This document shows, piece after piece, positions 10,551 through 51,000 of a DNA stretch of 64,000 bases. The notes beneath the pieces were generated by a model. It was not told the origin of the DNA. It saw nothing but the letters and a program-made list of their open reading frames with translations, and did not search any database. Origin of the DNA: a bacterium (GTDB taxonomy: Bacteria; Zixibacteria; MSB-5A5; GN15; FEB-12); contig JBDRNJ010000074.1 of assembly GCA_043811375.1 (NCBI GenBank), positions 58,880 to 122,879 on the forward strand. The letters run 5' to 3'. A program made the position numbers and the translations under genes. Numbering within the stretch: the first letter of the stretch is position 1; the number at the start of each line of letters is the position of its first letter.

Positions 10551-11750
10551 ATGAGTCTATCCGGTAACCTGAAAACGGTTTCCTTCCCCGATATCCTGCA
10601 ACTGTTGTCCACCGGCAAGAAAAGCGGTGTGCTGGAACTGAAGACAGCCACCCGCCAGAAAGAGGTAGCCTTCAAAGAGGGCAATATCGTCTATGCCTCC
10701 TCCATCAATTCCTCAGAGGATCTGCTGGGCAACATGCTGCTCAAACGGGGTCGCATTTCCAAAAGCGACCTGGAGCGGGCTATCACCCTCCACAAGCAAA
10801 CCGGTCGGCAGTTGGGCACCACCCTCATCGACATGAACCTGTTTGATAAAAGCGACATTACCGAATGCCTTAAGCTGCAGATAGAAGAAATCGTGTATAA
10901 CCTGTTTTCATGGAAGGAAGGCAACTTCGTCTTTCACGAGGGAACCTCTCCCAAAAACGTTCCCTTCCATGTGGAACTGATCACCATGAACGTCATCATG
11001 GAGGGAACCCGGCGCATCGACGAATGGCTCGAAATCCAAAAAATCCTTCCCCCGGATGACGTGTTGCTGGCTATTGTCAGATCACCCAAAATCAACCGTG
11101 AGGAAATCGTTTTCTCGCTCGACGAGTTCCGAATGCTGGCTCTGATCAATGGGGAACGCACCCTGCCTGATTTGATCAACCTGTCAACTATGGGCGAGTT
11201 CGTTACCAGTCGGGCAGTGTACCGTCTGATGCTCAACAAATTGGTGGAAGTCGCCGGCAAACAAGTCGAGGAAGTCCAGGAAGAAGATGAAGAGGAAATA
11301 ATTCTGCGCCTGGTTTTTGATCTGTACAATCACTGCTTCTACCAGATACAGTCCTTGTTCGAATTCAAGCTGGGAGGAGAAAACACCCGCTTTGCTTCCC
11401 TGGCTGCCCAATACCGTAGCGGACTGATGAACTACTTTCCGGGCACCGACCCCAAATCAGACATAAAACCCTCCTTCGACAAATTTCTCACCGCTGCCAA
11501 AGCAATCCCCTCTGCGATAAGGCTGCAGAAACTGATGTCCCAGCTGGAACAGGCTCTGGCCGAACAACTGGAATTTGTCTACCAACTGCTGGGAATAGGG
11601 ACCTTCCGAGAAGCTGTAACCGGTGTCAAGAAAGAGATATCAGAACCGCTCGCCAAACGGCGGGAACTGGTCAAACAATATGGAATCGAAGATACATTCT
11701 ACCGTACACTCAAACGTGCTGATAGAGCCGTTAAAATGGTGCGAGGGTAA
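10551..11750 (+). CDS. DUF4388 (PATAN-like) protein with an MshEN-like tandem helix motif
   Basis: LSGNLKTVSFPDILQLLSTGKKSGVL...LFSWKEGNFVF...MEGTRRIDEW. Confidence 0.8.
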   Translation: MSLSGNLKTVSFPDILQLLSTGKKSGVLELKTATRQKEVAFKEGNIVYASSINSSEDLLGNMLLKRGRISKSDLERAITLHKQTGRQLGTTLIDMNLFDKSDITECLKLQIEEIVYNLFSWKEGNFVFHEGTSPKNVPFHVELITMNVIMEGTRRIDEWLEIQKILPPDDVLLAIVRSPKINREEIVFSLDEFRMLALINGERTLPDLINLSTMGEFVTSRAVYRLMLNKLVEVAGKQVEEVQEEDEEEIILRLVFDLYNHCFYQIQSLFEFKLGGENTRFASLAAQYRSGLMNYFPGTDPKSDIKPSFDKFLTAAKAIPSAIRLQKLMSQLEQALAEQLEFVYQLLGIGTFREAVTGVKKEISEPLAKRRELVKQYGIEDTFYRTLKRADRAVKMVRG

Positions 11751-11754
11751 CGAC

Positions 11755-12117
11755 ATGAAACAAGGGATTGTTCTGGGAACCGTATTTGTAATCGCTGCCG
11801 CCACACCGGCACAGGCAGCCAATCTGGCCGTAATCACCAGTCCTCCGACACTGCTGAACTTGTTCATCCTGATCTTCGCGGTGGGCTGTCTGGCCTCATC
11901 CGCCAAGGTGATGTCTTTGGTCAGGGGTGGCCAACTCAGCCGAAGCTGGCAAATGTTCGCAGCCGGTTTTGCAGTGTTGACTATATGCCAATTAGCGATA
12001 CTAAGCAGCCATCTGGAACTGATCCTGCTGCCGTCGTTTGTCGTCCCGGGCGCACTGGTTGTCATGAGCGGGCTGTTTCTGTTCGGCATTATTGAAACCA
12101 AACGCGCACTGAGCTGA
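11755..12117 (+). CDS. Small membrane protein (signal/TM plus about 3 TM helices)
   Basis: ATG 4 nt after the DUF4388 stop; hydrophobic segments. Confidence 0.7.
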   Translation: MKQGIVLGTVFVIAAATPAQAANLAVITSPPTLLNLFILIFAVGCLASSAKVMSLVRGGQLSRSWQMFAAGFAVLTICQLAILSSHLELILLPSFVVPGALVVMSGLFLFGIIETKRALS

Positions 12118-12222: not shown

Positions 12223-13074
12223 ATGGCCCGCACTCACGAGTTGAAAGATAGAATTACTAAATGCGAGAAAATTCTGGAAACTGACCCCAGTTCTCAGATT
12301 TTTGCAGCTCTGGCCGACGCCCACCGCAAGAAGGGCGAGCTCGACCGAGCCTTTCGTATTTGTCAAAACGGCCTGAAAATCCATCCCTCTTACGGATCGG
12401 CGCACGTCGTCATGTCCAAAATCAATCTTGACCGGGGTCTGTATGATTGGGCTGAAACCGAGGCACAAAAGGCCGTCAAGATCGATGGAGCTACGCGCTC
12501 AATAGAATTGCTGCTGGCTGAGATCTACCTGTACAGGGGTGAGTTCAACTCCGCCCTCAAGCTGCTTAACCGACTTCACGAAGCTGATCCCGACAATGAT
12601 CAGATCAATAAAATGCTGGATCTGGCGCACCGAATACCCGAGGAGCAGACAGTTCTAATGGGCGATCACGAATCCGAGGACACCGGGAACACCATCGTTG
12701 AGTCAATCGATACCGGCACCCGCCGGCTCAACATGTCCGAAGTTATCAGCCAGAGCGTAACTGTGGAGGGAATCGATGGTGCCCTGTTTCTCAACGGGGA
12801 GGGGTTGGTCGTCGAAGCCGAGTGGCCGCTGAAGTGGGACCAGACTGTCTGCGCCGCCACTCTGGGAAACATTGGCTCTTTGCTCGACCGGGAACCGATT
12901 CAGAACACTTTCGGCACTGCCCACAACATTCTTATCGAAACCGACGACTCGATTTTCTACATCGCCCGGGTCGCCGATGGTGTATTCATCTTCGCGGCTG
13001 CCGGCTCGACCAACCTGGGAACGCTGCGCATGAAAATCGATAATATGCTGCTGGATTATCAGCAGTCATCATAG
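12223..13074 (+). CDS. TPR protein with a C-terminal roadblock/LC7-like domain
   Basis: TPR helices (FAALADAHRKKGELDRA...HPSYGSAHV); C-terminus GIDGALFLNGEGLVV...NLGTLRM. Confidence 0.8.
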   Translation: MARTHELKDRITKCEKILETDPSSQIFAALADAHRKKGELDRAFRICQNGLKIHPSYGSAHVVMSKINLDRGLYDWAETEAQKAVKIDGATRSIELLLAEIYLYRGEFNSALKLLNRLHEADPDNDQINKMLDLAHRIPEEQTVLMGDHESEDTGNTIVESIDTGTRRLNMSEVISQSVTVEGIDGALFLNGEGLVVEAEWPLKWDQTVCAATLGNIGSLLDREPIQNTFGTAHNILIETDDSIFYIARVADGVFIFAAAGSTNLGTLRMKIDNMLLDYQQSS

Positions 13075-13084
13075 AGGGACTATT

Positions 13085-14074
13085 ATGGAACTGACGGCAC
13101 GGATTGTACGTCAAACACTACTCATCTCACTGACGATTCTGATGGCACCGCTGTTGCTCTTCCCCGATCGGCTGGGGACGGGACTGGCCGGAGTGGCGCT
13201 AATGAACGGCGTGTTTGAGTTGACCTTCTACGCTGTGGTATCGTACCTGCTTTTTCGGCATGCCACGCTGGGCAAGATTGTTCAGATTTCACTGCTCTGC
13301 CTGGGTTTCCGATTGCTGCTGGGTGTCTTTTTCGGCATGTTCGTCGCGGCCATGTATTCGATGAACCTGGCCATATCGATAAAACTGGGCCTGGCGGCAT
13401 ATCTTCCAGCGGTCCTGCTTCACATAGCCGTCACTCCCCTGGTACTCAAACCGATCAGCAGGCAGTTGGTACCATCGGTAACCCGACGTCGGACGGCACC
13501 CGAGTCTCCGGCGCCGGCAGAAACGACGGACACTAACATGACTACGATGTCGGCAACCGGGAAAGGCGCACCTGTTCGGCTTGAGACGAACAACACACCT
13601 GCCGACGTTGTCCGAGCATCCGCAGAGACTCGGTCCGGTATTACCCCCGCAACCGAAAACACCGACGATGGTTTCGACCGTGCTGTCCGCTATATCGGTG
13701 AGGACGGTTCCGTCCGGCTGGCCGCCGTGGTCGACCAGGAGGGGTTGCTGCTGGGCTGTTTCGTCAGGGGTGACCTCCTGGCCGATGACTGGGCGCCACT
13801 GGCGCTAGTAATTAGCGAAGCCGGCCAAACCGCCCTCAAGCGAACCGGCCAGGATTCACTTGAGAGAATTGACATGCTGCTCAAGGAGGATCGGATTGTC
13901 GTTGCCCGTCAGCCATCATGGTCGCTGTTGGTAATTTCCCAGCGCCAGACTAATGACACCCTCAATATCAGAATCAATCAGGGACTCGAAATAATCAGGA
14001 AATACATGGCACAGCGGTACAGTCACGAACTGTCCGTAAGCCCGGAGAGAACCTATGTATCAAGTGCTCAGTGA
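13085..14074 (+). CDS. Membrane protein (about 4 TM) with a Pro/Thr linker and a C-terminal roadblock-like domain
   Basis: Hydrophobic N-terminus; VRLAAVVDQEGLLLG roadblock-type motif. Confidence 0.7.
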   Translation: MELTARIVRQTLLISLTILMAPLLLFPDRLGTGLAGVALMNGVFELTFYAVVSYLLFRHATLGKIVQISLLCLGFRLLLGVFFGMFVAAMYSMNLAISIKLGLAAYLPAVLLHIAVTPLVLKPISRQLVPSVTRRRTAPESPAPAETTDTNMTTMSATGKGAPVRLETNNTPADVVRASAETRSGITPATENTDDGFDRAVRYIGEDGSVRLAAVVDQEGLLLGCFVRGDLLADDWAPLALVISEAGQTALKRTGQDSLERIDMLLKEDRIVVARQPSWSLLVISQRQTNDTLNIRINQGLEIIRKYMAQRYSHELSVSPERTYVSSAQ

Positions 14075-14396
14075 ACTGAACAAGACCACCGGCGTCACCG
14101 GCTGTATGGTGGTGGGCAATGACGGCATGGTTATCGCCGCCGACCTTGCAACCGGCTTTGACGGTGATGCTGTCGGAGCGCTGGCAGCTTCCATTACGTC
14201 CAACATACAGAAATCACTGCAACGGCTGGAAACGCACCCGGCCAGACAGGTCACCATCGAAGCCGACAACGCCAAACTGTTTTTCACTCACGCTGAAAAG
14301 GGAATGCTGGTGGTCACCACCGAAAAGAACGTCAACATCGGACTGGTGCGCCTGGAGATGAAAAACGCCCTCAACAAACTAAAAGAAATACAATAA
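14055..14396 (+). CDS. Stand-alone roadblock/LC7 protein (MglB/MglC-like)
   Basis: GVTGCMVVGNDGMVIA...NIGLVRLEMK; overlaps the upstream gene by 20 nt. Confidence 0.85.
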   Translation: MYQVLSELNKTTGVTGCMVVGNDGMVIAADLATGFDGDAVGALAASITSNIQKSLQRLETHPARQVTIEADNAKLFFTHAEKGMLVVTTEKNVNIGLVRLEMKNALNKLKEIQ

Positions 14397-14427: not shown

Positions 14428-15504
14428 ATGGTATCAATCAACTACTCATCGCGGGAAGTTTGCTGCAAAATTGTCTATTACGGCCCGGGGTTGTCCGGCA
14501 AAACCACAAATTTGCAGTACGTGCACTCCAAGGTGCCGTCGAACACCCGGGGTAAACTGATCTCGCTGGCGACGGAGGCCGACCGAACCCTGTACTTTGA
14601 CTTCCTGCCCATTAACATAGGCACCATCAACGGCTTTGCCGCCAAGTTCCAGTTGTACACGGTGCCGGGGCAGGTCTACTACAACGCCACTCGCAAGCTT
14701 GTATTGCGCGGGGTTGACGGTGTCGTTTTTGTGGCTGACAGCCAACCGGATAAGATGGATGAGAACATCGAGTCTCTAACCAATCTCGAAGAGAATCTGC
14801 GCGAGTATGGCTATAACATCAACGACATGCCAATGGTTATACAGTACAACAAGCGAGATTTGCCGGGAGTAATGACGGTCGACCAACTCAATGCCATACT
14901 TAACCCACAGGGTCGGTCGTGTTATGAAGCCTCGGCCACGATCGGTAACGGTGTTTTCGACACGCTCAAACTGATTATCAAACTGGTGCTGGAAAAGGCC
15001 AAATCGACCGGCCCGCCGCGGTCATCTCCCCCTGATCAGCCAACAGAGGTGACGGCTCCATCCGTGTTGGTCACCACCGCCACTACGGGCCGGCACGAAT
15101 CGATACCCCAGGCTGCTGGCGTCATGGCGGGACCGGAGTCGCCAACATCGGCTGCTTCTACCAGGACGGTCACAGTTGCTGCCCCGGTTGATACACCGAT
15201 GTCAGCTACAGAAGAAGCCGCACCGAAACCGACCTATACGTCCTTCCCGCAATCGGCGCGTCCCTTCCCCGGTAGCGAAGAATCGGCCGCGGCTCCCCGA
15301 AAAATCTCTCCAACCGGTTTTGCTCCGACACGGCAAGCACGACCGGAAGAAGCATCAATAGAGAAAAAAGCAATCGAACACGGTAGTGATGATCCGGACA
15401 CGCCCTCGGAATCGACGAGAACTCCCTTAATGGCGCCCGCTCTGCGACGACGAAGTTATAAGAAGAAACGAGGTTTCTTCAAGCGTTTGTTCGGACTCAA
15501 ATAG
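14428..15504 (+). CDS. mglA: MglA-family small GTPase with a long C-terminal extension
   Basis: KIVYYGPGLSGKTTN, DRTLYFDF, YTVPGQVYY, NKRD motifs as in Myxococcus MglA. Confidence 0.95.
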   Translation: MVSINYSSREVCCKIVYYGPGLSGKTTNLQYVHSKVPSNTRGKLISLATEADRTLYFDFLPINIGTINGFAAKFQLYTVPGQVYYNATRKLVLRGVDGVVFVADSQPDKMDENIESLTNLEENLREYGYNINDMPMVIQYNKRDLPGVMTVDQLNAILNPQGRSCYEASATIGNGVFDTLKLIIKLVLEKAKSTGPPRSSPPDQPTEVTAPSVLVTTATTGRHESIPQAAGVMAGPESPTSAASTRTVTVAAPVDTPMSATEEAAPKPTYTSFPQSARPFPGSEESAAAPRKISPTGFAPTRQARPEEASIEKKAIEHGSDDPDTPSESTRTPLMAPALRRRSYKKKRGFFKRLFGLK

Positions 15505-15521: not shown

Positions 15522-16013
15522 ATGGCTGACGACAGCTTGATAATCTACGAAGAAGAGATTACCCAGATCGAAGCACTCATTTCCAAAATGCTGCAGAGTG
15601 CTGAGGCCAAGTGTGCTCTGCTGGTTGACAAGGACGGCCACCTGATCACACGACAGGGATTCACACATTCACTGGATACCACCGCTCTGGCGGCATTGCT
15701 GGCCGGCTCTTTTGCCTCCACCAGGGAAATCGCCCGATTGGTAGGTGAATCGGAATTCTCGGTCCTGTTCCATCAGGGCAAGAAAGACCACATCCACATG
15801 AGCCTTGTTGGTGAACGCTCAATCCTGGTAGTTATTTTCGATGACCGCACTACCATCGGCATGGTGCGACTGTGCGCCAAGGAAACGGCTGCCGAATTAA
15901 CCGAGGTTTTTATTCGCATTGAGAATGGTCCCCGAGATAAATCCGACTACGCCGTTTCCAGCGACTTCGCCAGCAGAGCGCAGGACAAATTGGACGACAT
16001 TTTCCAGGATTGA
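15522..16013 (+). CDS. mglB: MglB (roadblock-domain GAP of MglA)
   Basis: IYEEE...LVDKDGHLI...DTTALAALLAGS...FHQG...VIFDDRTTIGMVRL and acidic C-terminal helix LDDIF; AAGGAGG RBS. Confidence 0.9.
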   Translation: MADDSLIIYEEEITQIEALISKMLQSAEAKCALLVDKDGHLITRQGFTHSLDTTALAALLAGSFASTREIARLVGESEFSVLFHQGKKDHIHMSLVGERSILVVIFDDRTTIGMVRLCAKETAAELTEVFIRIENGPRDKSDYAVSSDFASRAQDKLDDIFQD

Positions 16014-16085: not shown

Positions 16086-17780
16086 ATGTCATCAGAACTC
16101 GGGGCAATACTGGTCGATGCCGGTAAGATCACTCAGGAACAAGCCGAAAATGCTGCGGCATACAGCAAAGACCACAAAGAGAAATTCGAGGCTGCGCTGG
16201 TCAAGACAGGAGCCGTAGCCTCCGAAGACGATATCGCCAAACTGATCGGCCAGCACCTCAAGATCGGCACTCTCCGTCTCAGCGATATCGAACTCAACCC
16301 CGAGATCGTCCAACTCATTCCATCCGATATCGCCCGCAAGTTCAAAGTCATCGCAGTCTCCAAAATCAACAGGACCCTGTTGGTGGCTATCGGCGACCCC
16401 AACAACATCTACGTTCTGGACGCCATCAAGTTTATCACCGGACTTGTCGTCCAACCTGTTATCTCTCCGGAAAACGCCATCGAAAAAGCAATCGACGTCT
16501 ACTACACCGACAGCGGCAACCTCTCCGAAATCGTCAAGGGCATGGAAGAAGATTCCTACCTGGAAGTGGTAGAAGCCGAAAAGGGGCCTACCGAGTCCGA
16601 CCTGCTTTCAGCCATCCAGGATAAACCGCTGGTCAAGCTGGTCGATTCGATCATCGGCGATGCCATCCGCATGGGCTCTTCCGATATCCATATGGAGATG
16701 TACGAAAAACGTATCCGCGTTCGCTATCGCATCGACGGCGATTTGCGTGAGATGGAACCGCTGCCGTTTAAGTATCGTTCCGCTATCGTCTCACGTGTCA
16801 AAATTATGGCCGACCTGGACATCTCCGAACGGCGACTGCCGCAGGATGGCCGCATTAAGATCAAGATCAGCGGACGTACGGTTGACCTGCGAGTCTCCGT
16901 CCTGCCGACCATCTTCGGCGAAAAGGTCGTCATGCGTATTCTGGATCCGATGGCGCTGATGGTCGATATGACCAAGCTTGGGTTCCGGAAGGAGGATTTG
17001 TCCAAATTCGATGATGCCATCCATCTTCCTTTCGGCATCATTCTGGTTACCGGTCCGACCGGTTCCGGAAAAACAACCACGCTGTACTCGGCACTCAAAC
17101 AACTCAACCAAATCGACGTGAACATTATGACGGCCGAGGACCCGGTGGAGTTCAATTTCGACGGTATCAACCAGGTAGCCGTCCGATCCGGCATCGGGTT
17201 GAGTTTTGCCGCTTCGTTACGGTCATTTCTGCGACAGGACCCGGATATTATCATGGTCGGAGAAATCCGTGACACCGAAACTGCCGAGATCGCCATCCGG
17301 GCAGCTCTGACCGGTCACCTTGTTTTCTCGACCCTGCACACCAACGATGCCCCCTCATCCATCAACCGACTGATTGACATGGGCATCCCCTACTACCTGG
17401 TCGCCTCGTCCACCAAATTGATCATGGCCCAGCGAATGACGCGCAAGATATGCCAGACGTGTAAGGAAGAAATCAACCTGACCCAGCAACAGATGGAAAG
17501 CCTGGCTCCGACAAAAGAACTGGCACGCAATATCCGGGCTTTCCGTGGCGTCGGCTGCCGCGAATGCAATGAAACCGGAAAAGCCGGGCGAACTGGCATT
17601 TACGAAGTCATGCCGATTAGCCCCAGCATCGAACAACTGATCCTTGACAAAGCCTCCGACACCGAAATCAAGAAAATCGCAATGGAGGAGGGAATGTTCA
17701 GCCTGCGTATGTGCGCCATCGAGAAAATGAAGCAGGGATTGATCGACATCGACGAAGTCTTCGCCGTATCTGCTGTCTAA
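16086..17780 (+). CDS. pilB: Type IV pilus extension ATPase PilB
   Basis: SDIH, RLPQDGR, GPTGSGKTT, LRQDPD, GHLVFSTLHTN; CxxC...CxxC zinc motif. Confidence 0.95.
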   Translation: MSSELGAILVDAGKITQEQAENAAAYSKDHKEKFEAALVKTGAVASEDDIAKLIGQHLKIGTLRLSDIELNPEIVQLIPSDIARKFKVIAVSKINRTLLVAIGDPNNIYVLDAIKFITGLVVQPVISPENAIEKAIDVYYTDSGNLSEIVKGMEEDSYLEVVEAEKGPTESDLLSAIQDKPLVKLVDSIIGDAIRMGSSDIHMEMYEKRIRVRYRIDGDLREMEPLPFKYRSAIVSRVKIMADLDISERRLPQDGRIKIKISGRTVDLRVSVLPTIFGEKVVMRILDPMALMVDMTKLGFRKEDLSKFDDAIHLPFGIILVTGPTGSGKTTTLYSALKQLNQIDVNIMTAEDPVEFNFDGINQVAVRSGIGLSFAASLRSFLRQDPDIIMVGEIRDTETAEIAIRAALTGHLVFSTLHTNDAPSSINRLIDMGIPYYLVASSTKLIMAQRMTRKICQTCKEEINLTQQQMESLAPTKELARNIRAFRGVGCRECNETGKAGRTGIYEVMPISPSIEQLILDKASDTEIKKIAMEEGMFSLRMCAIEKMKQGLIDIDEVFAVSAV

Positions 17781-17934: not shown

Positions 17935-19011
17935 ATGGTAACTTTGAGAGAACTTCTGGAACACATGGTTAAAATGGGAGCCTCCGATTTGCATCTGACA
18001 GTTGGTGCGCCACCGGTCGTCAGAGTGGATGGTAAGCTGCAGCGTCTCAAATACGATTTGCTGACCGCTGAATTAATCAAGAAGCTCTCCTATTCGATGC
18101 TCAACGAAAAACAGAAGCTGAAATTCGAACAAAACTCGGAACTGGATTTCTCCTTTGGTATCGAACAGATGAGTCGCTTTCGATGTAATATGTTCGTTCA
18201 GCGCGGTAACGTCGCTGTAGCTCTGCGCCAGATTCCGTACAAGATCAGATCGTTCGATGAGCTTGGCATGCCCAAGGTCGTCGCCGATTTTTCCCGTCTG
18301 CCGCGTGGGCTGGTGCTGGTTACAGGTCCCACCGGATCAGGCAAGTCCACCACCCTAGCCTCGATAATCGACAAGATCAACAAAGAACGGCCCGTGCATA
18401 TCATCACCGTCGAAGATCCTATCGAGTATTTACACCGCCATCAAACCGCCCTTATCAACCAGCGTGAAGTATACTCGGATACCAGTTCCTTTGCCAGCGC
18501 TCTGAAGTACGCCCTGCGTGAGGACCCTGACGTAGTGCTCGTCGGCGAGATGCGCGACCTGGAAACGATGGAAGCGGCTCTCTCGATTGCTGAAACCGGC
18601 CATCTGGCCTTTGCCACCCTGCACACCAACTCGGCTGCCGAATCGATCAATCGTGTCGTCGATTCCTTCCCGACCAACCAGCAGGAACAGATTCGGATTT
18701 CGCTCTCGTTTTCACTGCAAGCCATCATTTCACAGACACTGATACCCAGGATTGGCGGCGGTCGGTTAGTGGCCATGGAAATTCTGATCTGTACCCCCGC
18801 CATACGCGCCCTCATCCGTGATGACAAGGTTCAGCAGATGTACTCGATGATACAGTCGGGACAAAAATACGGTATGAAAACCATGAATCAGTCGTTGGCC
18901 GAAATGCAGATTTCAGGCAAGATTTCTCTAAATGACGCCATGGCCTACAGCCACAATCCGCAGGAGTTGGGAGAAATGTTGTCGCGTCAGAAAACACCGG
19001 CCTTTTCATAA
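17935..19011 (+). CDS. pilT: Type IV pilus retraction ATPase PilT
   Basis: ASDLHL, GPTGSGKSTT, EDPIE, LREDPD, AETGHL, AIRALIR. Confidence 0.96.
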   Translation: MVTLRELLEHMVKMGASDLHLTVGAPPVVRVDGKLQRLKYDLLTAELIKKLSYSMLNEKQKLKFEQNSELDFSFGIEQMSRFRCNMFVQRGNVAVALRQIPYKIRSFDELGMPKVVADFSRLPRGLVLVTGPTGSGKSTTLASIIDKINKERPVHIITVEDPIEYLHRHQTALINQREVYSDTSSFASALKYALREDPDVVLVGEMRDLETMEAALSIAETGHLAFATLHTNSAAESINRVVDSFPTNQQEQIRISLSFSLQAIISQTLIPRIGGGRLVAMEILICTPAIRALIRDDKVQQMYSMIQSGQKYGMKTMNQSLAEMQISGKISLNDAMAYSHNPQELGEMLSRQKTPAFS

Positions 19012-19038: not shown

Positions 19039-20235
19039 ATGCCAGTTTTTGAATACAAAGGCAAAACCCTCGCGGGAGCTGTCGTACAGGGCCAACTGAA
19101 AGCCAAAGGACGAGAAGACATCGAGCGCGTCCTCAGACAGAACCGCATCATTGCCAAGTCGATCACCAAAAAGGCTCCCGATCTGCAAATCAAGATCGGA
19201 ACTGGAGTCAAAAAGATCGAAGTCTCGCGTTTCACCCGGCAGTTTGCCACCATGATCGGTGCCGGACTACCCATGGTGCAATGCCTGGAGATTCTGGCCA
19301 CACAGCAAGAGAACAAGGCACTAGCCAAAATCATATCCCAGGTAAAAGAAGCGGTGCAGGGAGGTTCCACTCTCTCGGAAGGCCTGGCGCGTCACCCCAA
19401 GATCTTCGATAAACTGTATACCAACATGGTGGAAGCCGGCGAAATCGGCGGTGCCCTGGACGCCATCCTGGTCCGTCTGGCAGTTTACCGCGAGAAGGCT
19501 GACAAACTTGTCCGCAAGGTCAAGGGCGCTATGGTTTATCCCTCAGTCATCATTTTCGTCGCCGCCGCCGTTACCATTGGTATGTTGGCCTTTATTGTAC
19601 CGGTCTTCGCCAAGATGTTCGGCGGACTCGGAGCAGAATTGCCCAAGCCGACTCAGGTGGTGCTGCAAATCTCTAATTTCCTGCAATCGAATTTCCTGTA
19701 TCTGTTCTTCGGAGCTCTCGGCCTGACAGGTGCCTTCCTGTGGTGGAAGAAAACACCTACCGGTGCCCTGATGACCGACCGCACCCTGCTGGTGATGCCG
19801 GTCCTGGGCAACCTGGTACGTAAGTCCTCGGTGGCCCGCTTCACCCGCACCCTGGGAACCCTGCTGTCATCCGGTGTTTCCATTCTCGATGCCCTGGATA
19901 TCACCGCCAAAACTGCCGGCAACCTGGTCATCGCCAACGCTATCAACAAATCGGTGCTGGCTATCGCCGAGGGTGACACGATTACCGGACCCCTGAGAGA
20001 TTCCGGTGTTTTCCCGCCAATGGTCACACAGATGATTGCAGTCGGTGAAAAAACCGGTGGCCTGGACGAGATGCTGTCCAAAATCGCCGACTTCTATGAT
20101 GAAGAAGTAGACGACGCCGTATCGGCCCTGACCTCAGTCATCGAACCGATCATTATCGTGTTTATGGGTGTCATAATCGGCGGTATCCTGGTAGCCATGT
20201 ACCTGCCGATGTTTGACATCATCGGTAAAATTTAG
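19039..20235 (+). CDS. pilC: Type IV pilus platform protein PilC (T2SS F family)
   Basis: FTRQFATMIGAGLP, AGEIGG, VGEKTGGLDEML, EPIIIV...MYLPMF. Confidence 0.96.
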   Translation: MPVFEYKGKTLAGAVVQGQLKAKGREDIERVLRQNRIIAKSITKKAPDLQIKIGTGVKKIEVSRFTRQFATMIGAGLPMVQCLEILATQQENKALAKIISQVKEAVQGGSTLSEGLARHPKIFDKLYTNMVEAGEIGGALDAILVRLAVYREKADKLVRKVKGAMVYPSVIIFVAAAVTIGMLAFIVPVFAKMFGGLGAELPKPTQVVLQISNFLQSNFLYLFFGALGLTGAFLWWKKTPTGALMTDRTLLVMPVLGNLVRKSSVARFTRTLGTLLSSGVSILDALDITAKTAGNLVIANAINKSVLAIAEGDTITGPLRDSGVFPPMVTQMIAVGEKTGGLDEMLSKIADFYDEEVDDAVSALTSVIEPIIIVFMGVIIGGILVAMYLPMFDIIGKI

Positions 20236-34089: not shown

Positions 34090-35586
34090 CTATCGAAAAA
34101 ACACAATCTCCACCCGCCGATTCTGAGATCGACCCCGGGCGGTGTCGTTGGGGGCAATGAAGTTGCTCTCGCCGCGACCGAAAACCTTTATCCGGTCCTC
34201 GGCCACCCCCATAACCACCAGGTAATCCCGAACTCTCCGGGCTCTTTTCTCCGACAGATCCTGGTTGGCGCGAGCTTGACCAATATTGTCGGTATAACCG
34301 GTAATTTCAAGCTTGATATCGGGCACGAAATTCAGCACCCTCGCCAATTCCTCCAGACGCTCCTGGTTGGCCGGGTCAACCTCAAACGAACCCGGCACAT
34401 AATCAATATGCAATATCATCGGCTCGTTGAGAAAGGGCAGGTCGATACAACCATGGCGGTCGACATCCGCACCCCACAGAGTATGGGGGCAGTCATCGAG
34501 TCCGTCCGGAACTCCGTCCAGGTCGGAATCTATCGGGCAGCCTCTGGCATCAACTATCGCACCGATGCGGTTGGCCGGGCATCCGTCCAGATAATCGGGG
34601 ATACCGTCAAAATCGGAATCCACCGGACATCCGAAGATGTCCACTCGTCCGGCTGCTCGAGGCTCCGTATTAGGACAGTCATCCCACTCGTCGTTGACGC
34701 CGTCACCGTCGGAGTCCATGGCACAGCCCCGTCGGTCGACCCGGGCGCCGGCCGGAGTACCGGGGCAATCGTCATTCTTATCGGGTACGCCGTCGCCATC
34801 GATGTCGGCTGTTGCCGTTGATTTCGGCTCATCCGGTGTTACCGTCTGCCAGGCCGTTTCGGATCGCCATTGATGACCACTGACGCGTCCCCCAAAGGAA
34901 AAACCAACTGCCAACAACGACCCCATCAGCCACCGCGGCCGACTCGAATTGACACCGACTCTGAACTCGGCGCCGGCGGTTGTCAAATGATCCACTTGCA
35001 GGCGCCACTTTAACGAAAATCTATCAGACAGCGATACTTCCATGCTGCCGCAACCGGTCACGAACAATTCCGAGGCCCGGTAACTGACTTCTTCATTGCG
35101 AGCTCCGCGAGCTGTCAGGATCGTATCAGCCGGCGGGTCCATGAACTTCCAGGTCATGAGACCGCCGCCCAGCCCGACCGCCACGCTGATCCGCCCGCCA
35201 CTCAGCAGCCGGCGTCCGGCCAGCAATCCGATCCGGGTTGCCCGCCATTTGAGTGTGGCGTCGGTGGCGTCCCCGCCAAACGACCAGCCCGATCCGGCTG
35301 TGGAATCATTGAAGAGTTGATAAGTGGTCAGGCTCAAACCCAACGTCCACCGCTCGTGAAAACAATAGGTCACACCGCCACCCCAGGCGCGGTCAACAGT
35401 GAACCTGGCCGAATCGGCGCTGCCGCCCCGTAACGTCGCCAGACCGCCCCTGACATCCACCGTAAAACGGTGATCGGGACACCCGGCCGACACCCCGGCC
35501 GACATGATAGCTGCGGTCATACCGACCACCGCCAAAAATCCGACGGTGCGCCCGACCATTGGCCATTTACCAGCATCAGGAGACAT
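34090..35586 (-). CDS. OmpA family protein (beta-barrel, TSP3 repeats, PG-binding domain)
   Basis: DxDGDGVPD..D.CP repeats; GYTDNIG..NQDLSEKRA..NRRVE. Confidence 0.92.
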   Translation of the reverse strand: MSPDAGKWPMVGRTVGFLAVVGMTAAIMSAGVSAGCPDHRFTVDVRGGLATLRGGSADSARFTVDRAWGGGVTYCFHERWTLGLSLTTYQLFNDSTAGSGWSFGGDATDATLKWRATRIGLLAGRRLLSGGRISVAVGLGGGLMTWKFMDPPADTILTARGARNEEVSYRASELFVTGCGSMEVSLSDRFSLKWRLQVDHLTTAGAEFRVGVNSSRPRWLMGSLLAVGFSFGGRVSGHQWRSETAWQTVTPDEPKSTATADIDGDGVPDKNDDCPGTPAGARVDRRGCAMDSDGDGVNDEWDDCPNTEPRAAGRVDIFGCPVDSDFDGIPDYLDGCPANRIGAIVDARGCPIDSDLDGVPDGLDDCPHTLWGADVDRHGCIDLPFLNEPMILHIDYVPGSFEVDPANQERLEELARVLNFVPDIKLEITGYTDNIGQARANQDLSEKRARRVRDYLVVMGVAEDRIKVFGRGESNFIAPNDTARGRSQNRRVEIVFFR

Positions 35587-36875
35587 CAGTACAGTTTCCT
35601 CAACTGGACACCGGTATAGTAGTGAGTCAGAATCCGATCAAACGACGACCCGGCCCGGGCCATACCGATGGCGCCACACTGACACATGCCGACACCGTGT
35701 CCGTAACCGCTGCCCGAGAAAGTTATCTTGCGAACGTTACCGGAGCCGTCACGATCGATCTTAACGTCAAAGCGGTCGGAAGGCAGAATCAGGTCCGGGT
35801 TGGAAGTACGGCCGACCATCCAGCGGATACGATCTTTGTGAAATCTGTAGACGTCGCTGTCGGTGCGTATCAGCAGACGTGCCACCCGGCCGCCGGGAGT
35901 ATGTTCGGCAATACGAACGTCCTGGATGCTACCTATACGCAGGTCTCGTCCCCGATCACCGGCCAGATACTGCTCCACCCGGCCCCTCAACTGCGACTCC
36001 GTAAACACTTCCTGCCATCGGTAGTATTTCGACCAGGAACAGGCGGTATCATCCGCCACCGCCTTCAGGTAGGGAATCTCCTTACGGTCCCAGACATGTG
36101 AGATGTTGTCGGTCATACCGCCGCAGGTCGAGTGATAGTAGGCGTTGATCAATTCATCATGGTAAGTAATAACTTTTCCGGCAGTAGCATCAATAGCCCG
36201 GTTGATCAATACGTTTTCGACGTCACCCCCTTCATATACCTGATCGATAATGCTGGACTTCATGTCGTACGGCTCCCCCTCGTACTGTTTCAGATGGGCC
36301 ATGGCATGGGTGCGGGCGGCTATCGCCTGGGCCTTGACGGCTTCTATTTCCTCATCGGACCTCCGGCCAATCTCGGGCGGCACCACTCCCCGCAAGTAGT
36401 CCTCCATGTAGACAATGTTTACCAGCCGGACATTGCGGCCATAAGGAAGTACTTTGATTATCCCCCGGTAACTTTTACGGTCGAGTTGTACTCGGTTGTC
36501 GGTTCCCCGCGGAATGATATTGACCTCGTCCACCAGTTCCTGAATCGAACCCCCACCGGGATTTTCGACGGTTAGTTTCAAACCCTCGTTTCTGACCGTA
36601 ACCGGACGCGATGAATAGTAAACTGTCTGTTCCCCACCGGCCAGGCATTCCACGGCAAACGACCGGGTCGTACTCAGGACCACCTCACTGGTGTTATCCT
36701 TCAGCAGAACCCGCACGAACGGAATCCTGATAAAGGAACCCGACCGCTCCTCCTTCAAACCCGGAACGGTGGCACAACTCCACACCAGAGCCATCAGGAA
36801 CAGGGCGGTACCGATTCGGGCCACCAGTCTGGCGGCCGAGTGCAGAAAGGACGTCGTTCTGGAATCGTTGCTCAT
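35586..36875 (-). CDS. SpoIID/LytB lytic transglycosylase lipoprotein
   Basis: Lipobox VWSC; EDYLRGVVPPEI, KAQAIAART, YHSTCGG, GHGVGMCQCGA. Confidence 0.92.
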   Translation of the reverse strand: MSNDSRTTSFLHSAARLVARIGTALFLMALVWSCATVPGLKEERSGSFIRIPFVRVLLKDNTSEVVLSTTRSFAVECLAGGEQTVYYSSRPVTVRNEGLKLTVENPGGGSIQELVDEVNIIPRGTDNRVQLDRKSYRGIIKVLPYGRNVRLVNIVYMEDYLRGVVPPEIGRRSDEEIEAVKAQAIAARTHAMAHLKQYEGEPYDMKSSIIDQVYEGGDVENVLINRAIDATAGKVITYHDELINAYYHSTCGGMTDNISHVWDRKEIPYLKAVADDTACSWSKYYRWQEVFTESQLRGRVEQYLAGDRGRDLRIGSIQDVRIAEHTPGGRVARLLIRTDSDVYRFHKDRIRWMVGRTSNPDLILPSDRFDVKIDRDGSGNVRKITFSGSGYGHGVGMCQCGAIGMARAGSSFDRILTHYYTGVQLRKLY

Positions 36876-38086
36876 TTTTTTTCTTTCACCGGGGGCTGCA
36901 CAATCCTGCCCAGTATCGGTTTGATCCCGGTGCGGTTATTCTTCCGATGCCGCATTAACGGCTCGGATCGTAAACAAGCTTCGCCCAGGACTGCAAATGA
37001 GGCCGCCTCCACCAGATCACCGTCCCAGCCAAGCTCGTCGACCGGTCGGACTTCAACCGCAGGTAACCGCTGCCGGAGTCGGTCTACCAGAAAGCTGTTC
37101 TTTCGACCTCCACCAGTCAAATACAATTTTGAGAGACTCCTGTTACGACGGATAAGCGGTTCAATTTTCATCGCAACAGTTGCCGCCGTCAGTTCAACCG
37201 CAGTTGCCAGCATATCCTCAGGCTGCAAACCGAATTTACGGCCGAAAACGAGAATCTCATCCACGACCGTCTGACCGAAGTCCTCGCGCCCGGTCGATAC
37301 CGCCCCACTCGAGAAAAAGGTGTTGGCCAACAGCAACGTCAGCAATCTCTGTGATGTCCGCCCCTGCGCGGCTCGTGCCCCACGTCCGTCAAACCTCTCT
37401 CCGAACAATTTTTGTGTAAGACTATCACTCAGGCAGTTTCCCGGCCCGCAATCGGCGGCATCAAGGCTCCGGGCGGCTGTTTTTCCGGGCAGGTAGAAAT
37501 AGTTTGCCATGCCGCCGATATTGACCAGCAGCCTGGTCTCTTCGGGCGTAGCGAACAGACGCTCAACAGCAACGGTCGTAATAGGAGCACCCTCGTTGCC
37601 AGCAGCCACATCGGCCTGTCGAAAATCGGCCACAACCGGCTTCCCTACGGCGGCTGCCACCTGCTCGGGTGATCCCAGTTGCAGCGTGCCGTGGACCATA
37701 AAATCACCTCGGCTTCTCTTCTGCGGCCGGTGGCGGACAGTCTGACCATGGGAGGCCAGCGCATCCACCCGGATTCCCCTCCTGCTCAAACTCCGGCAGT
37801 AGGTCGCGGCTGCTCGGCCAAAAAACTGACCCAATAAACTGTCCAGATCGATAATTTTGTCCAGTTCGACCGTCTGCGAGTCGATCACTTCCTGAACCAG
37901 TTGTCGGATTTCTCCCGGATAAGGCCGGGTGCGTCCGGCCAGATACTTGATCCGCATTCGTCTGCCGCCTCGAGAGATTCGCACGGCAACCATGTCCAGT
38001 CCGTCAACCGAGGTACCCGAGTTGAGCCCCAGCATGACCAGAGTCTTCCTGTTGAGTATTTCCAGCAATGTCACGACGGCAAACAA
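36872..38086 (-). CDS. anmK: Anhydro-N-acetylmuramic acid kinase (start may be GTG at 38074)
   Basis: GLNSGTSVDGLD, SHGQTVRH, DFRQAD..GNEGAP, NIGGMAN, DCGPGN, STGREDF. Confidence 0.93.
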   Translation of the reverse strand: MFAVVTLLEILNRKTLVMLGLNSGTSVDGLDMVAVRISRGGRRMRIKYLAGRTRPYPGEIRQLVQEVIDSQTVELDKIIDLDSLLGQFFGRAAATYCRSLSRRGIRVDALASHGQTVRHRPQKRSRGDFMVHGTLQLGSPEQVAAAVGKPVVADFRQADVAAGNEGAPITTVAVERLFATPEETRLLVNIGGMANYFYLPGKTAARSLDAADCGPGNCLSDSLTQKLFGERFDGRGARAAQGRTSQRLLTLLLANTFFSSGAVSTGREDFGQTVVDEILVFGRKFGLQPEDMLATAVELTAATVAMKIEPLIRRNRSLSKLYLTGGGRKNSFLVDRLRQRLPAVEVRPVDELGWDGDLVEAASFAVLGEACLRSEPLMRHRKNNRTGIKPILGRIVQPPVKEKK

Positions 38087-39118
38087 TCAGCGCAGCACCG
38101 GACTGTCCAGCTTGAACTTCATGCCGGATATGCGCCCCAGTGCCTGTCTGAGACGCACCGACATGATCTCCCGCTCGGCGACGGCTTCAACGAAGTAGTC
38201 ATACGCCCGCATGGTCTCTTCCAGATCCCGGCCAAACAGAAGCAGGTCGTGGCCGGAAGCTAAAGCATCTACCGCCCGCTCACCAACATGACCCAGTGTC
38301 CCGGCGCCTGTCATCAATAAATCATCGGTCACCACCGGTCCGTCAAAATCCAGTCGTTTGCGTATCATAGTATCGACGACCTTAGCCGAGCCGGTGGCCG
38401 ATGCGGCGTCTATTTTCGGCAGCATGAGATGGGTAGTCATAACCATGTCGGCACCCGCCTTGACACCAGCCAGAAACGGAATCATTTCCCGCTGCTCCCA
38501 GATCACGTCATCGTAGTCCGCCGTCGCCAATTGCCGGTGCGGATCGATGGCGGCCGCCCCCAAACCGGGGAAATGCTTGAGGCAACTGAGAAGCCCGGCC
38601 TTTCTCGATATCTGTACCGCCTGCCGTACAAACGGCACGATTTCATCAGGGGTGGCACCGAAACAACGGTCCTTAAGACAGTCGTTGGCTTCGTTGAGCC
38701 GGATGTCACAAACCGGGCCAAGATTCAGATTGATACCCAGTGAAGCCATAAACACAGCCGATCGGGTGTAATCTTCCCGGAAGCGTTCCAGTTGCCCGTC
38801 GCGACCGTATTCTTCAGCGGCGCGGTACTCAGCCGGAGCTCCGCGCAGACGACAGATCCGGCCCCCTTCCTGATCGATCGCAATCAAGGGTAATGTGCCG
38901 CGGCACCTGGCCCTGATAGTTTCAATGTTCTCTCGAGCGACTTCGTGCGTGGGGCAATTCTCCTCAAAAAGAATCACTCCCCCGATACGCTCCTCAGCAA
39001 TAAACTGGAGAAACTCCTCCGACGGCTCGGCTCCGGGAAAACCGATTATGAACAACTGGCCTATCTTATTGTCTGATGTATTCATGCTTTCACTCATACT
39101 TGTGGTTGTATATCGCAT
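38087..39118 (-). CDS. nagZ: Beta-N-acetylhexosaminidase NagZ (GH3)
   Basis: IDQEGG, KHFPGLGAAAIDPH, VTDDL. Confidence 0.92.
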   Translation of the reverse strand: MRYTTTSMSESMNTSDNKIGQLFIIGFPGAEPSEEFLQFIAEERIGGVILFEENCPTHEVARENIETIRARCRGTLPLIAIDQEGGRICRLRGAPAEYRAAEEYGRDGQLERFREDYTRSAVFMASLGINLNLGPVCDIRLNEANDCLKDRCFGATPDEIVPFVRQAVQISRKAGLLSCLKHFPGLGAAAIDPHRQLATADYDDVIWEQREMIPFLAGVKAGADMVMTTHLMLPKIDAASATGSAKVVDTMIRKRLDFDGPVVTDDLLMTGAGTLGHVGERAVDALASGHDLLLFGRDLEETMRAYDYFVEAVAEREIMSVRLRQALGRISGMKFKLDSPVLR

Positions 39119-48044: not shown

Positions 48045-51000
48045 TTAGGTGCATGGCGGAGGATTCGCACCACCCTGGAACAGATAAGCTACCAGGTAGG
48101 TCAGATCACCAACGTCAATACTGCCGGTTCCGTCAACATCGCCTTCGATATCGCACGGCGGCGGAGCACCACCCTGGAACAAATAAGCTACCAGGTAAGT
48201 CAGATCACCAACGTCAATACTGCCGGTTCCGTCAACATCACCTCTTACCTTACAGCAGGATGACGACACCGGTCTGATATAATCCTCGAAGAACTGCAAG
48301 CTCTGCTCGACCTCTTCAAGAAGGTCGGCCAGAGTACCGTTCCAGTGAGTGACAATTTCGACATAGTACACATAGGTGTCACCCGGCAACAGGGTCGCCA
48401 GCGTGTCGAACGTCATCACCGTGTGCAGGTCGGCGTTGCTGGAGTCGGAAATGGCATAGCCACTGTTGGCCATGTACTTAAACAGCGAATCCTGATGGAA
48501 GCCACCTTCCGGATAAACGTAGGTCGAGTTATCCTTGGTGTAGGCGCCGTGAGGAGTCGTCTTATACTCCACACCGTTCTTGTAACCGGCCAGGAAGTCG
48601 ATACCGCCCCAGCGGGTGTCGTTCGGCTGACAACCTTCGTCGTCCTCCTCCGAACCCTGCTGGTAGATCAGGTTGTGCGGGTAGTCGAAGCCGGAGTTGT
48701 TACGCGAACCGGTATCGGCCGGGATATCGAAGTCAATACCTTCGCCGATACGCACGCTGGTCGGCGGCGTCCGCAAGTCATCGTAGAGGTACACCCTGAT
48801 CTCCTGAATGACGAAGCTGCAGGTATCCGGATCAGTAATCGGAGCATACCAGATCTTCTCGATGGCGATCATTGAGTCACTGGTGACAATGACGCCGCTC
48901 TTAAAGATCCCGTAATAAGCAGTCGAGTCAGTAGACGTGGTATCGCCAACCGGACGGAGGGCGCTGGTGTCAACATAGGTCACGTCGAAGATGGAGAAAC
49001 TGACCAGGGTGTCATTGCCGCCCTTGACATAGCCGATAATGGGCGAGCCATCGTAGACATAAACCGTTGCAGTCGTGTCGCAGTCACCGGCATCGTAGTA
49101 GTCCATGTTGGTCTTCTCTTCGCCCTGATGACCGAAGTTACCGGAGTTGCTCACAACCAGGCTGAGACAGCTAGTGGAGATGGTGTCATAGACAGGCGCG
49201 ATCAGAGTGTCGACTACCCAGGCCTCGATCGGCAGAACCTTGCTCTCAGAAGGAGCCCAATTGTATGTGATCTCACCGGCCAGATACACGATCGTATTCG
49301 GAGTGTTGACCGTCCCGCCGTTATTGATATGCACCTGCATCGTGTGCTTGTTGGCGCAGCCGGACGGAATAGTAGTCGGGTCGTTGCTCTTGCCCAGCGA
49401 GCCGCCCGGCCCATCGGTCTGCGTCAGCGTTATGCTGGTGAAAACCAACGGGGCGTTACCGGTATTCTCGCAGATGACATCGACATCCTTCTGAATACCA
49501 TGTTTGGTCCAGGTCGGATACCCAATGATCGGCGGATCCAGCGACAGGCTCGGTGCCGAGATAAGCGGGCAGCAGGGCACGCGCATCCACCGGACGTCGG
49601 CGAGGGCCCACCAGCCCTGATCCTGAATAGCACCACCGGCACTCTTATCGTCAACATACATGATGTCGAGATAATATGTCCCCGGGTCGGTGCAGTCGTC
49701 GGGAACCACGATATTGGCGCCGCTGAAGTTGCCGCTGTAGTTGGTGCCGTACCTGGCCATCGAGGAATAGGTTTCGTCGGCACAGTCCAGAGAACAGGCC
49801 GGTGTGTAAGACTTGGTCAGGTTACGAGCCTTATCCCAGGTAACACCGTTGTCACCGGAAACGCACAGCCATAGATCACCATTGGCGGCACCGGCCGGGA
49901 AACCGGGGTTGCTTTCTACGGCGCAGTCATCATCGACGCCACCCGGAATGTCGTTGTACTGCGCAAACAGGGTGTACAGTTTGCCGTCACAGTACGAAAT
50001 ACTCGGCTTGTCAGCGTTCAGACACCACGAGTTCGGCGAGCAATTCTCCTGATCCCGGTTGGCATCATGAACCGTACGCACGCCGCACTCCGTGGGACAA
50101 TAGTGGAATACACGACCACGATAGAGACCGGCATCGCCGCCACAGTTGGCGTCAGTGGGCCAGTATCGGGCACCCCAGACAATGTGAATATCGTTGCTGG
50201 GGTCGAGCAGCACGTTAAGGGAGGTGTAAGGACGATACGGATACGGATCATTACCGCCATTGCACTCGTCTTCGTGCTTGGTCACGTTTTCCCGGGGCAG
50301 CCAGTTGGCACCGCCATCGGTCGAGACCTGGTAGTATATGTCATTGTCCCACTGAACATAATCATGTTCTGAGTAGCCGTCCTGCCCGGAGCAGGAACAG
50401 GTATCACAACCCGAGGGATCATCGTTACAGGGACGGTTGGCGACCCAGGTGATAACCACCATTCCGGCGTCGTTGCAATCGATATCTTCAGAGATATCGT
50501 AAATAGTGTCCACGCAACGAACTTCCCAGACACCGCCGTTTTCCGGATTAACGTTCCGGAAATAGGCAACTACCTGCGGATCAGCCGCTGCGGGAGCCGT
50601 TTCAGCCGCTAATACGTGCAGGATGGTGTCGGTACCTTCCTGCAGGGCAATTGCCGGCCAGATGTAGCCGTCATTGCCCAAACCGGTGCGACCATCCCAC
50701 TGGCAGCTCTCACCAGTGTCAACCGGGATACTATAGCCGGTGAAGAAACAGCCGCCGGGTTCAAAGTCAAAGTACGGTCTGGTCTTATACGGGTCTATAC
50801 CGGCTTCGGGCGAGTAGTGACCGCCCGGAATACCACGGTTATCGTTGGTTACGTCGACTACCACGTAACCGCCTTTTTCGTTGGTGCTCCCTGTCGATTG
50901 CACCCGACCCTTACAGGCCTCGGCGCCCACAGCCGCGTTCCAACTATAATAGTAGTAACAGCGGTCCGGAGCGGCAGCCGTCGCATCCGGCGACATCATG

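What the first reader, a model, noticed from the sequence alone, without database searches (positions are those of the whole stretch)
15004..15504. MglA carries a ~165-aa disordered tail ending in a MinD-type membrane-targeting helix
Seen: after the G domain comes a Pro/Ala/Ser/Thr-rich linker ending RRRSYKKKRGFFKRLFGLK. Known: the E. coli MinD amphipathic membrane-targeting sequence is KKGFLKRLFGG, and canonical MglA is about 195 aa with no such tail. Inference: this is a bacterial Ras-like GTPase with its own flexible linker and polybasic/amphipathic membrane anchor, like the Ras hypervariable region. It could allow Min-like membrane association or oscillation without RomR/RomX.
Basis: partly seen in the sequence, partly recalled or inferred. 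Interest (0 to 1): 0.8.

Follow-up and report, generated by a model that had tools for sequence, protein, structure and literature searches.

The report
MglA GTPase with membrane-anchor tail
This Ras-like bacterial switch protein (MglA), which is short and tail-less in the well-studied species, carries a long, poorly conserved tail ending in a basic, aromatic peptide nearly identical to the membrane anchor of the cell-division protein MinD; the design is kept across Zixibacteria and likely tethers the switch to the inner membrane, where it is predicted to steer the type IV pilus motor encoded next door.

Summary
Real and conserved; a new variant of a known system. Window 14428-15504 (+) encodes a 358-aa group-1 MglA: G domain (1-193), a 57% Pro/Ala/Ser/Thr linker, then a polybasic stretch and RGFFKRLFGL, 7/10 identical to the E. 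coli MinD anchor. Homologues place it in Zixibacteria. All 89 complete orthologues examined (18 families) have a 106-456-aa tail. 86/89 end basic and aromatic, against 145/2845 of this genome's other proteins and 0/54 short MglAs (thresholds set after viewing). The terminal letters change between families but the chemistry holds. In Planctomycetota, 7/7 complete MglAs, mostly in the same gene cassette, end in a transmembrane helix instead. Membrane tethering is therefore likely but untested. Min-like oscillation is not supported: no MinE in 101 genomes, no MinD here, and the anchor lies about 150 residues from the G domain. A RomR C-terminal profile gave one weak hit in 121 genomes, but tail-less MglAs occur in the same cassette (6 Gemmatimonadota loci). 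No describing paper was found in four targeted searches. This scan had already reported the same feature on other Zixibacteria genomes, and the transmembrane form in Planctomycetota.

The parts
14428..15504 (+). mglA, 358 aa: group-1 MglA GTPase with 165-aa C-terminal tail; the only MglA found in the genome
14428..15006 (+). G domain (aa 1-193) with G1 GPGLSGKT, intrinsic Arg53/Thr54, G3 TVPGQ (Gln82), G4 NKRD
15007..15429 (+). Pro/Ala/Ser/Thr-rich, poorly conserved linker (aa 194-334), predicted disordered; tolerates in-frame insertions
15259..15273 (+). Internal conserved motif RP[FY]PG (aa 278-282), in 40/40 orthologues of families f1, f3, f4 and 0/49 of the other families; partner unknown
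15430..15471 (+). MAP motif and polybasic stretch (aa 335-348)
15469..15501 (+). MinD-type terminal peptide RGFFKRLFGLK (aa 348-358); F350, F351, L354, F355, L357 on one helical face; predicted membrane anchor
10551..11750 (+). DUF4388 protein with an MshE-related c-di-GMP motif hit over cut-off
11755..12117 (+). 120-aa hydrophobic, probably membrane, protein conserved in the cassette
12223..13074 (+). TPR-roadblock protein
13085..14074 (+). 329-aa protein with hydrophobic N-terminal region and, by inspection, a roadblock-like C-terminus; no Pfam hit
14055..14396 (+). 113-aa stand-alone roadblock protein
15522..16013 (+). mglB, roadblock-domain GAP candidate (NF052242, E 4e-26, below its cut-off)
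16086..17780 (+). pilB (TIGR02538 over cut-off)
17935..19011 (+). pilT (TIGR01420 over cut-off)
19039..20235 (+). pilC (T2SSF)

Best explanation
This is a group-1 MglA GTPase with intact catalytic motifs, whose conserved basic-plus-aromatic C-terminal peptide likely anchors it to the cytoplasmic face of the inner membrane on a predicted disordered leash of about 150 residues, where the adjacent MglB would switch it off and its GTP form would likely control the type IV pilus motor encoded next to it. Shown: the architecture, its conservation, the gene order. Inferred step 1: the Lys/Arg cluster binds anionic lipids and the FFxxLF face inserts, as in MinD. Because the peptide is preceded by basic rather than acidic residues, one copy probably suffices, so binding would be largely nucleotide-independent (RIT1-like, B. 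subtilis MinD-like) rather than dimer-gated. Inferred step 2: the anchor confines the switch to two dimensions; where it is active would be set by the roadblock, TPR and DUF4388 partners of the cassette, not by RomR. Inferred step 3: the RP[FY]PG motif is a lineage-specific docking site for one of those partners.
For: 7/10 identity to the E. coli MinD anchor, which is used as a transplantable membrane tag (PMC5471200 passage); hydrophobic moment 0.61 versus 0.55 for that anchor. Tail in 89/89 complete orthologues; basic+aromatic end in 86/89 versus 145/2845 own-genome ORFs, 2/623 linker windows and 0/54 short MglAs. The letters differ between families (FFKRLFG, FFLFRWF, FWDRLFGWL, FLWRWI, LFGWLK) while the chemistry is kept, the pattern expected of lipid binding rather than a fixed protein pocket. 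The same position holds a true transmembrane helix in 7/7 complete Planctomycetota MglAs, most in the same DUF4388-roadblock-mglA-mglB cassette, and in 19/150 cluster representatives. The cassette plus pilB is intact in 20/20 8-kb loci. In one family-f17 genome with no MglA hit, pilB follows the comEC-like gene directly, so the cassette appears lost as a unit. In M. xanthus MglA-GTP recruits PilB through the TPR protein SgmX (PMC11580455 passages).
Against: No experiment; the organism is known here only from assemblies. The hydrophobic moment alone is unremarkable, and my first combined filter (moment >=0.6) passed only 23/89 orthologues and failed the query; the filter that separates well was chosen afterwards. 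Within this order the terminal peptide is almost invariant (0.89), which also fits a protein-binding motif. The anchor is not obligatory for the cassette: six Gemmatimonadota cassette MglAs are 203-209 aa with no such end, and 2 of 5 complete Fibrobacterota MglAs lack it. 46/150 long representatives end in a beta-rich element and 37/150 in something else, so long tails need not be anchors. The link to pili rests on gene order only.
Confidence: 0.66

Rival explanations
1. The terminal peptide and RP[FY]PG are protein-docking motifs: they bind a cassette partner (TPR-roadblock, roadblock, DUF4388, MglB) or fold back on the G domain as a cis regulator, and lipid binding is incidental.
For: Near-invariance of RGFFKRLFG[IL]K, MAP and RP[FY]PG within the order; family-specific internal motifs; a TPR protein lies in the cassette, and TPR domains often bind peptides (established knowledge).
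Against: Across families the terminal letters turn over while charge and aromatic content persist; a transmembrane helix occupies the same position in Planctomycetota.
Confidence: 0.16
2. One reading: membrane binding is gated by nucleotide (through GTP-dependent oligomerisation or partner binding that multiplies anchors), and MglB-driven release gives Min-like pole-to-pole oscillation without RomR/RomX.
For: The anchor is nearly the E. coli MinD one, which needs dimerisation for stable binding (PMC13537761 passages citing Szeto 2003). RomR C-terminal profile: 1 weak hit in 121 genomes versus 4/5 control genomes.
Against: No MinE in 0/101 genomes and no MinD over cut-off here. The anchor is about 150 low-complexity residues from the G domain. 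The tail has net +10, whereas acidic residues precede the E. coli anchor. T. thermophilus MglA-GTP is described as monomeric (PMC4316618 passage). Relatives with a permanent transmembrane anchor cannot cycle off the membrane.
Confidence: 0.12
3. The basic tail binds another polyanion (nucleic acid, polyphosphate) or is a turnover signal, and the MinD likeness is convergence without membrane function.
For: Extreme positive charge; short motif, so convergence is easy.
Against: Conserved one-sided aromatic face; transmembrane replacement in relatives.
Confidence: 0.06

Closest known systems
Group-1 MglA with MglB (Myxococcus xanthus, PDB 5ymx/6h35; Thermus thermophilus, PDB 3t12; Wuichet and Sogaard-Andersen, PMC4316618)
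   Same: G domain match E 1e-77; intrinsic Arg finger and TVPGQ; adjacent MglB; DUF4388 neighbour.
   Different: 165-aa tail with basic/aromatic end; mglA lies before mglB; three further roadblock-type genes; direct linkage to pilB-pilT-pilC; RomR C-terminal domain not found. That survey excluded sequences over 240 aa from further analysis, although its Table S2 lists long group-1 members, such as Fibrobacter succinogenes (313 aa) and Anaeromyxobacter (335-356 aa).
MinD membrane-targeting sequence (E. coli; B. subtilis)
   Same: 7/10 identical C-terminal peptide with the same helical face.
   Different: Sits on a Ras-type GTPase, not a ParA/MinD ATPase; separated by a long linker; polybasic rather than acidic flank; no MinE in the phylum sample. 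No homology beyond 10 residues was shown (a PDB search with the last 27 residues found nothing), so convergence is as likely as transfer.
RIT1/RIT2 and the K-Ras4B hypervariable region
   Same: Ras-superfamily G domain with a C-terminal basic extension; RIT1/2 lack CAAX and bind anionic lipids through it (PMC13565119 passages).
   Different: The RIT extension is about 35 aa and described as unstructured polybasic; here about 165 aa with a predicted amphipathic helix. Functional analogy only, no orthology.
M. xanthus MglA-SgmX-PilB pathway (PMC11580455)
   Same: MglA, a TPR protein and PilB are all present.
   Different: Here co-encoded in one cluster; the TPR protein is short and fused to a roadblock domain; SgmX orthology not tested.

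Membership tests
Group-1 MglA | G domain homologous to M. xanthus / T. thermophilus MglA | tested here: met
Group-1 MglA | Intrinsic Arg next to the G2 Thr, and TVPGQ G3 motif | tested here: met
   R53/T54 and T78-Q82 in the query; DRTL and G1 in 89/89 orthologues (TVPGQ was used to pick them, so that count is circular); criteria from PMC4316618
Group-1 MglA | Encoded near an MglB roadblock protein | tested here: met
   MglB hit in 88/90 loci
Group-1 MglA | Small size, 150-240 aa (the survey's working cut-off) | tested here: not met
   358 aa. This is a filter, not a clade property; longer group-1 members are in that paper's Table S2
Group-1 MglA | GTP hydrolysis stimulated by MglB | not testable with these tools
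   needs biochemistry
MinD-type membrane-targeting sequence | Short C-terminal peptide with bulky hydrophobics on one helical face and basic residues | tested here: met
   the moment alone does not separate it from background
MinD-type membrane-targeting sequence | Binds lipid bilayers and is transplantable | not testable with these tools
   needs GFP fusion or liposome assay
Min oscillator (MinD/MinE) | MinD ATPase and MinE present | tested here: not met
   MinD best 71 bits versus cut-off 213 in own genome; MinE 0/101 genomes, 4/14 controls positive
Myxococcus polarity module | RomR present | tested here: not met
   two-sequence C-terminal profile: 1/121, weak, in a 1309-aa frame not examined further; 4/5 control genomes hit; divergent forms could be missed
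Myxococcus polarity module | RomX, RomY, MglC and SgmX orthologues | not tested
   no query sequences were obtained

The most novel reading that the evidence does not exclude
Tailed MglAs are a large, overlooked branch of bacterial Ras-like GTPases that evolved membrane anchors in two interchangeable forms: a MinD-like amphipathic peptide in Zixibacteria and many Fibrobacterota, a transmembrane tail in Planctomycetota. With the membrane and roadblock proteins of their cassette they form a self-contained membrane-resident polarity switch, built like eukaryotic Ras/Rho signalling, that positions pili without RomR.
Probability: 0.3. Interest if true: 0.75.

Novelty: new variant of a known kind. 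Interest (0 to 1): 0.55.

Why it matters
In M. xanthus, MglA is brought to the pole by proteins (RomR/RomX), whereas eukaryotic Ras-family switches carry their own membrane anchors. A phylum-wide bacterial form with a built-in anchor would show that this design arose in bacteria without prenylation. It would change how the switch can pattern (slow two-dimensional diffusion), and it gives a small system that can be reconstituted on bilayers. The first test, a GFP-tail fusion, is cheap. The value is tempered because each element is known separately and function is unmeasured.

Tried and rejected
Complex prediction of the tail (aa 265-358) with the G domain, two MglB copies and the TPR-roadblock protein: no answer, score 0.00 in two runs, controls not folded; no evidence either way. 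Hydrophobic moment as a discriminator: weak; the first filter with moment >=0.6 failed the query and passed 23/89 orthologues versus 30/2846 background. PDB search with the last 27 residues: no hit. AlphaFold model: too low in confidence to show tail contacts; no fold search was run. Expression: one RNA run held only 90-95%-identical pieces of the G domain and the start of the tail, which is not proof of transcription; sequencing-run shares were all at or below 0.23, so no habitat claim is made. Possible tail-less Zixibacteria: short open frames in G239 and G142 reach their contig ends, G133 is open-ended, and G160 and G177 lie at contig starts. Frameshift or read-through artefact: rejected. 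Trees of G domains (quick method): Zixibacteria and Planctomycetota clades are each well supported, but their grouping with Fibrobacterota has only 80% SH-aLRT, so no order of events is claimed. The original MinD anchor paper was not available. One literature search was swamped by unrelated papers and one returned none. The tail-type regexes have errors (P0243 wrongly called MTS-like; P0254 probably a missed transmembrane tail).

Full report
OBSERVATION. Residues 3-195 match M. xanthus MglA at E 1e-77. It is the only MglA hit in the 95%-complete genome. Named homologues are Zixibacteria (3 of the 120 listed carry an organism name: two Zixibacteria, one FCB group). Residues 194-333 are 57% Pro/Ala/Ser/Thr, net charge -5. 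The AlphaFold model has low confidence over the linker and a helix at 350-355, but it is also poor in the switch regions. Contigs from three other studies show two 15-nt in-frame insertions in the linker, and one spans the whole tail, so the frame is real.

CONSERVATION. A G-domain search hit 243 of 251 genomes of the phylum, 195 of 198 high-quality ones. I read 90 loci: the 30 best, and 60 picked by hand to spread over families. 89 are complete and one runs off its contig. All 89 have a tail, 106-456 aa, median 179. Among 88 close homologues, chosen by similarity to the full-length query and so biased, mean identity is 0.88 for the G domain, 0.17 and 0.28 for the two linker parts, 0.85 for RP[FY]PG, 0.97 for MAP and 0.89 for the last 11 residues. 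RP[FY]PG is in 40/40 orthologues of three families and 0/49 of the rest. In distant families the terminal letters change but stay basic and rich in Phe/Trp.

IS THE END SPECIAL? Residues 348-357 are 7/10 identical to the E. coli MinD anchor as printed in PMC5471200. F350, F351, L354, F355 and L357 fall on one face; the moment is 0.61 versus 0.55 for MinD. The moment alone does not stand out: 685/2846 and 399/2845 of the genome's mechanically called ORFs match or exceed it, and a first filter that required a moment of 0.6 passed 23/89 and failed the query. Charge plus aromatics separates well. With net charge >=3 and >=2 Phe/Trp in the last 20 residues: 86/89 orthologues, 145/2845 background ORFs, 2/623 linker windows, 0/54 short MglAs. 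With >=5 and >=3: 74/89 versus 6/2845. These thresholds were set after seeing the data, and orthologues are kin.

BEYOND THE PHYLUM. The 150 best cluster representatives (of 2375 at E <=1e-30) are all 255-668 aa; short forms collapse into few clusters, so this is not a frequency. By rough rules, 48 end in an MTS-like peptide, 19 in a transmembrane helix, 46 in a beta-rich element and 37 otherwise, and the types cluster on a G-domain tree. One MTS-like non-Zixibacteria member is named Chitinivibrionales. A named sample of 80 genome loci (best of at least 598) gave 78 parsed and 75 complete MglAs: 54 of 240 aa or less and 21 longer. All 7 complete Planctomycetota proteins end in a transmembrane helix. 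3 of 5 complete Fibrobacterota proteins end MTS-like; the Fibrobacter sp. one does not. Of 8 Planctomycetota loci, 5 show the DUF4388 gene, 7 the small roadblock and 7 MglB. Six Gemmatimonadota MglAs in a similar cassette are only 203-209 aa: a counterexample to any claim that the cassette needs the anchor. Four loci labelled with other taxa or none (L103, L113, L122, L152) fall inside the Zixibacteria clade.

CONTEXT. The gene lies in a co-directional run: DUF4388 protein, small hydrophobic protein, TPR-roadblock, membrane protein with roadblock-like end, 113-aa roadblock, mglA, mglB, pilB, pilT, pilC and a PilS-like kinase. All eight genes tested were present in 20/20 8-kb loci from this order. 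In genome G105 (family f17, no MglA hit in 2/2 genomes), pilB directly follows a gene that looks like comEC by inspection, so the motor can persist without the cassette. MinD is not over cut-off in this genome and MinE was found in 0/101 genomes. A two-sequence profile of the C-terminal region of RomR-like proteins (the RomR label rests on a recalled motif plus receiver-linker-helix architecture) hit 4/5 control genomes but only 1/121 Zixibacteria, weakly. RomX was not tested.

MECHANISM. Most likely (0.66) the tail is a membrane tether: basic residues bind anionic lipid, the aromatic face inserts, and the linker lets the G domain reach membrane-proximal partners. The strongest arguments are chemistry conserved under sequence turnover, and a transmembrane helix at the same position in related cassettes. 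The E. coli MinD anchor needs two copies and the B. subtilis one does not (PMC13537761 passages). With net +10 and an extra Phe, I infer that one copy here suffices and that binding is not nucleotide-gated, as in RIT1/2. Control of pili is inferred from gene order and from the M. xanthus MglA-SgmX-PilB pathway. Rivals: protein-docking motif (0.16), Min-like gated cycling (0.12), other polyanion binding or turnover (0.06).

LITERATURE. Searches for MglA with amphipathic helix and C-terminal extension (3 unrelated listings), Zixibacteria and MglA (none), MglA with membrane targeting sequence and MinD (7 listings, none on this by title or abstract start) and MglA with Planctomycetota, Fibrobacter, membrane-anchored or disordered tail (none) found no description. 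Most subscription journals are not in the library. What I saw of each paper: PMC4316618, passages plus part 1 of 8 of supplement 3 and a term search (supplement file 1 could not be searched); PMC5471200, bioRxiv 10.64898/2026.10.05.756812, PMC13565119, PMC13408092, PMC13537761 and PMC11580455, passages only; Szeto 2003 only as cited there. The 2014 survey set aside sequences over 240 aa but tabulated some long group-1 members; in the passages I saw it does not discuss their tails.

EARLIER SCAN NOTES. Notes on other Zixibacteria genomes reach the same reading, and others describe the Planctomycetota transmembrane form, which I had already found. They are not counted as evidence.

VERDICT. Observation confirmed; interpretation partly supported; new variant of a known kind; interest 0.55.

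Noticed in passing
L099:2742-3632 and L127:6500-7633: MTS-like basic/aromatic peptides also occur on cassette partners: at the C-terminus of a Chitinivibrionales MglB and at the N-terminus of a Planctomycetota TPR-roadblock candidate.
   Followed up: no
P0158, P0163, P0192, P0229 and about 40 other representatives; L146: A third class of long MglA ends in a conserved beta-hairpin-like element of alternating hydrophobic residues; P0229 has both this and an MTS-like end.
   Followed up: partly
L205:1495-4670 (G105, family f17): The whole seven-gene Mgl cassette is missing between the comEC-like gene and pilB, a natural loss that keeps the pilus motor.
   Followed up: partly
window 10551-11750: The DUF4388 protein scores over cut-off for the MshE-related c-di-GMP motif (NF053729); PilB has a below-cut-off hit, so c-di-GMP may feed into the module.
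   Followed up: no
L109:8001-8951; P0147, P0220, P0148, P0183, P0228: Fibrobacterota-related long MglAs without an MTS-like end carry short [RK]P[YF] motifs resembling RP[FY]PG; may be homologous or chance in Pro-rich linkers.
   Followed up: partly
L103, L113, L122, L152, L100: Public records whose organism labels (Ignavibacteria, Terriglobales, Bifidobacteriales, unnamed) disagree with their MglA and cassette, which are of Zixibacteria or Fibrobacterota type.
   Followed up: partly
window 48045-51347 and 51991-55278 (-): Tandem paralogous 1100-aa Cys-rich secreted-looking proteins, each ending in two dockerin-like repeats by inspection.
   Followed up: no
window 55829-62497 and 62509-63924 (-): Large proteins of repeated cadherin/Ig-like units by inspection; the repeats continue across the two ORFs.
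   Followed up: no
window 34090-39118 (-): Run of peptidoglycan-related genes by inspection (OmpA-type with Asp-rich repeats, SpoIID-like, AnmK-like, NagZ-like); the AnmK-like ORF holds the genome's only other RP[FY]PG match, probably chance.
   Followed up: no
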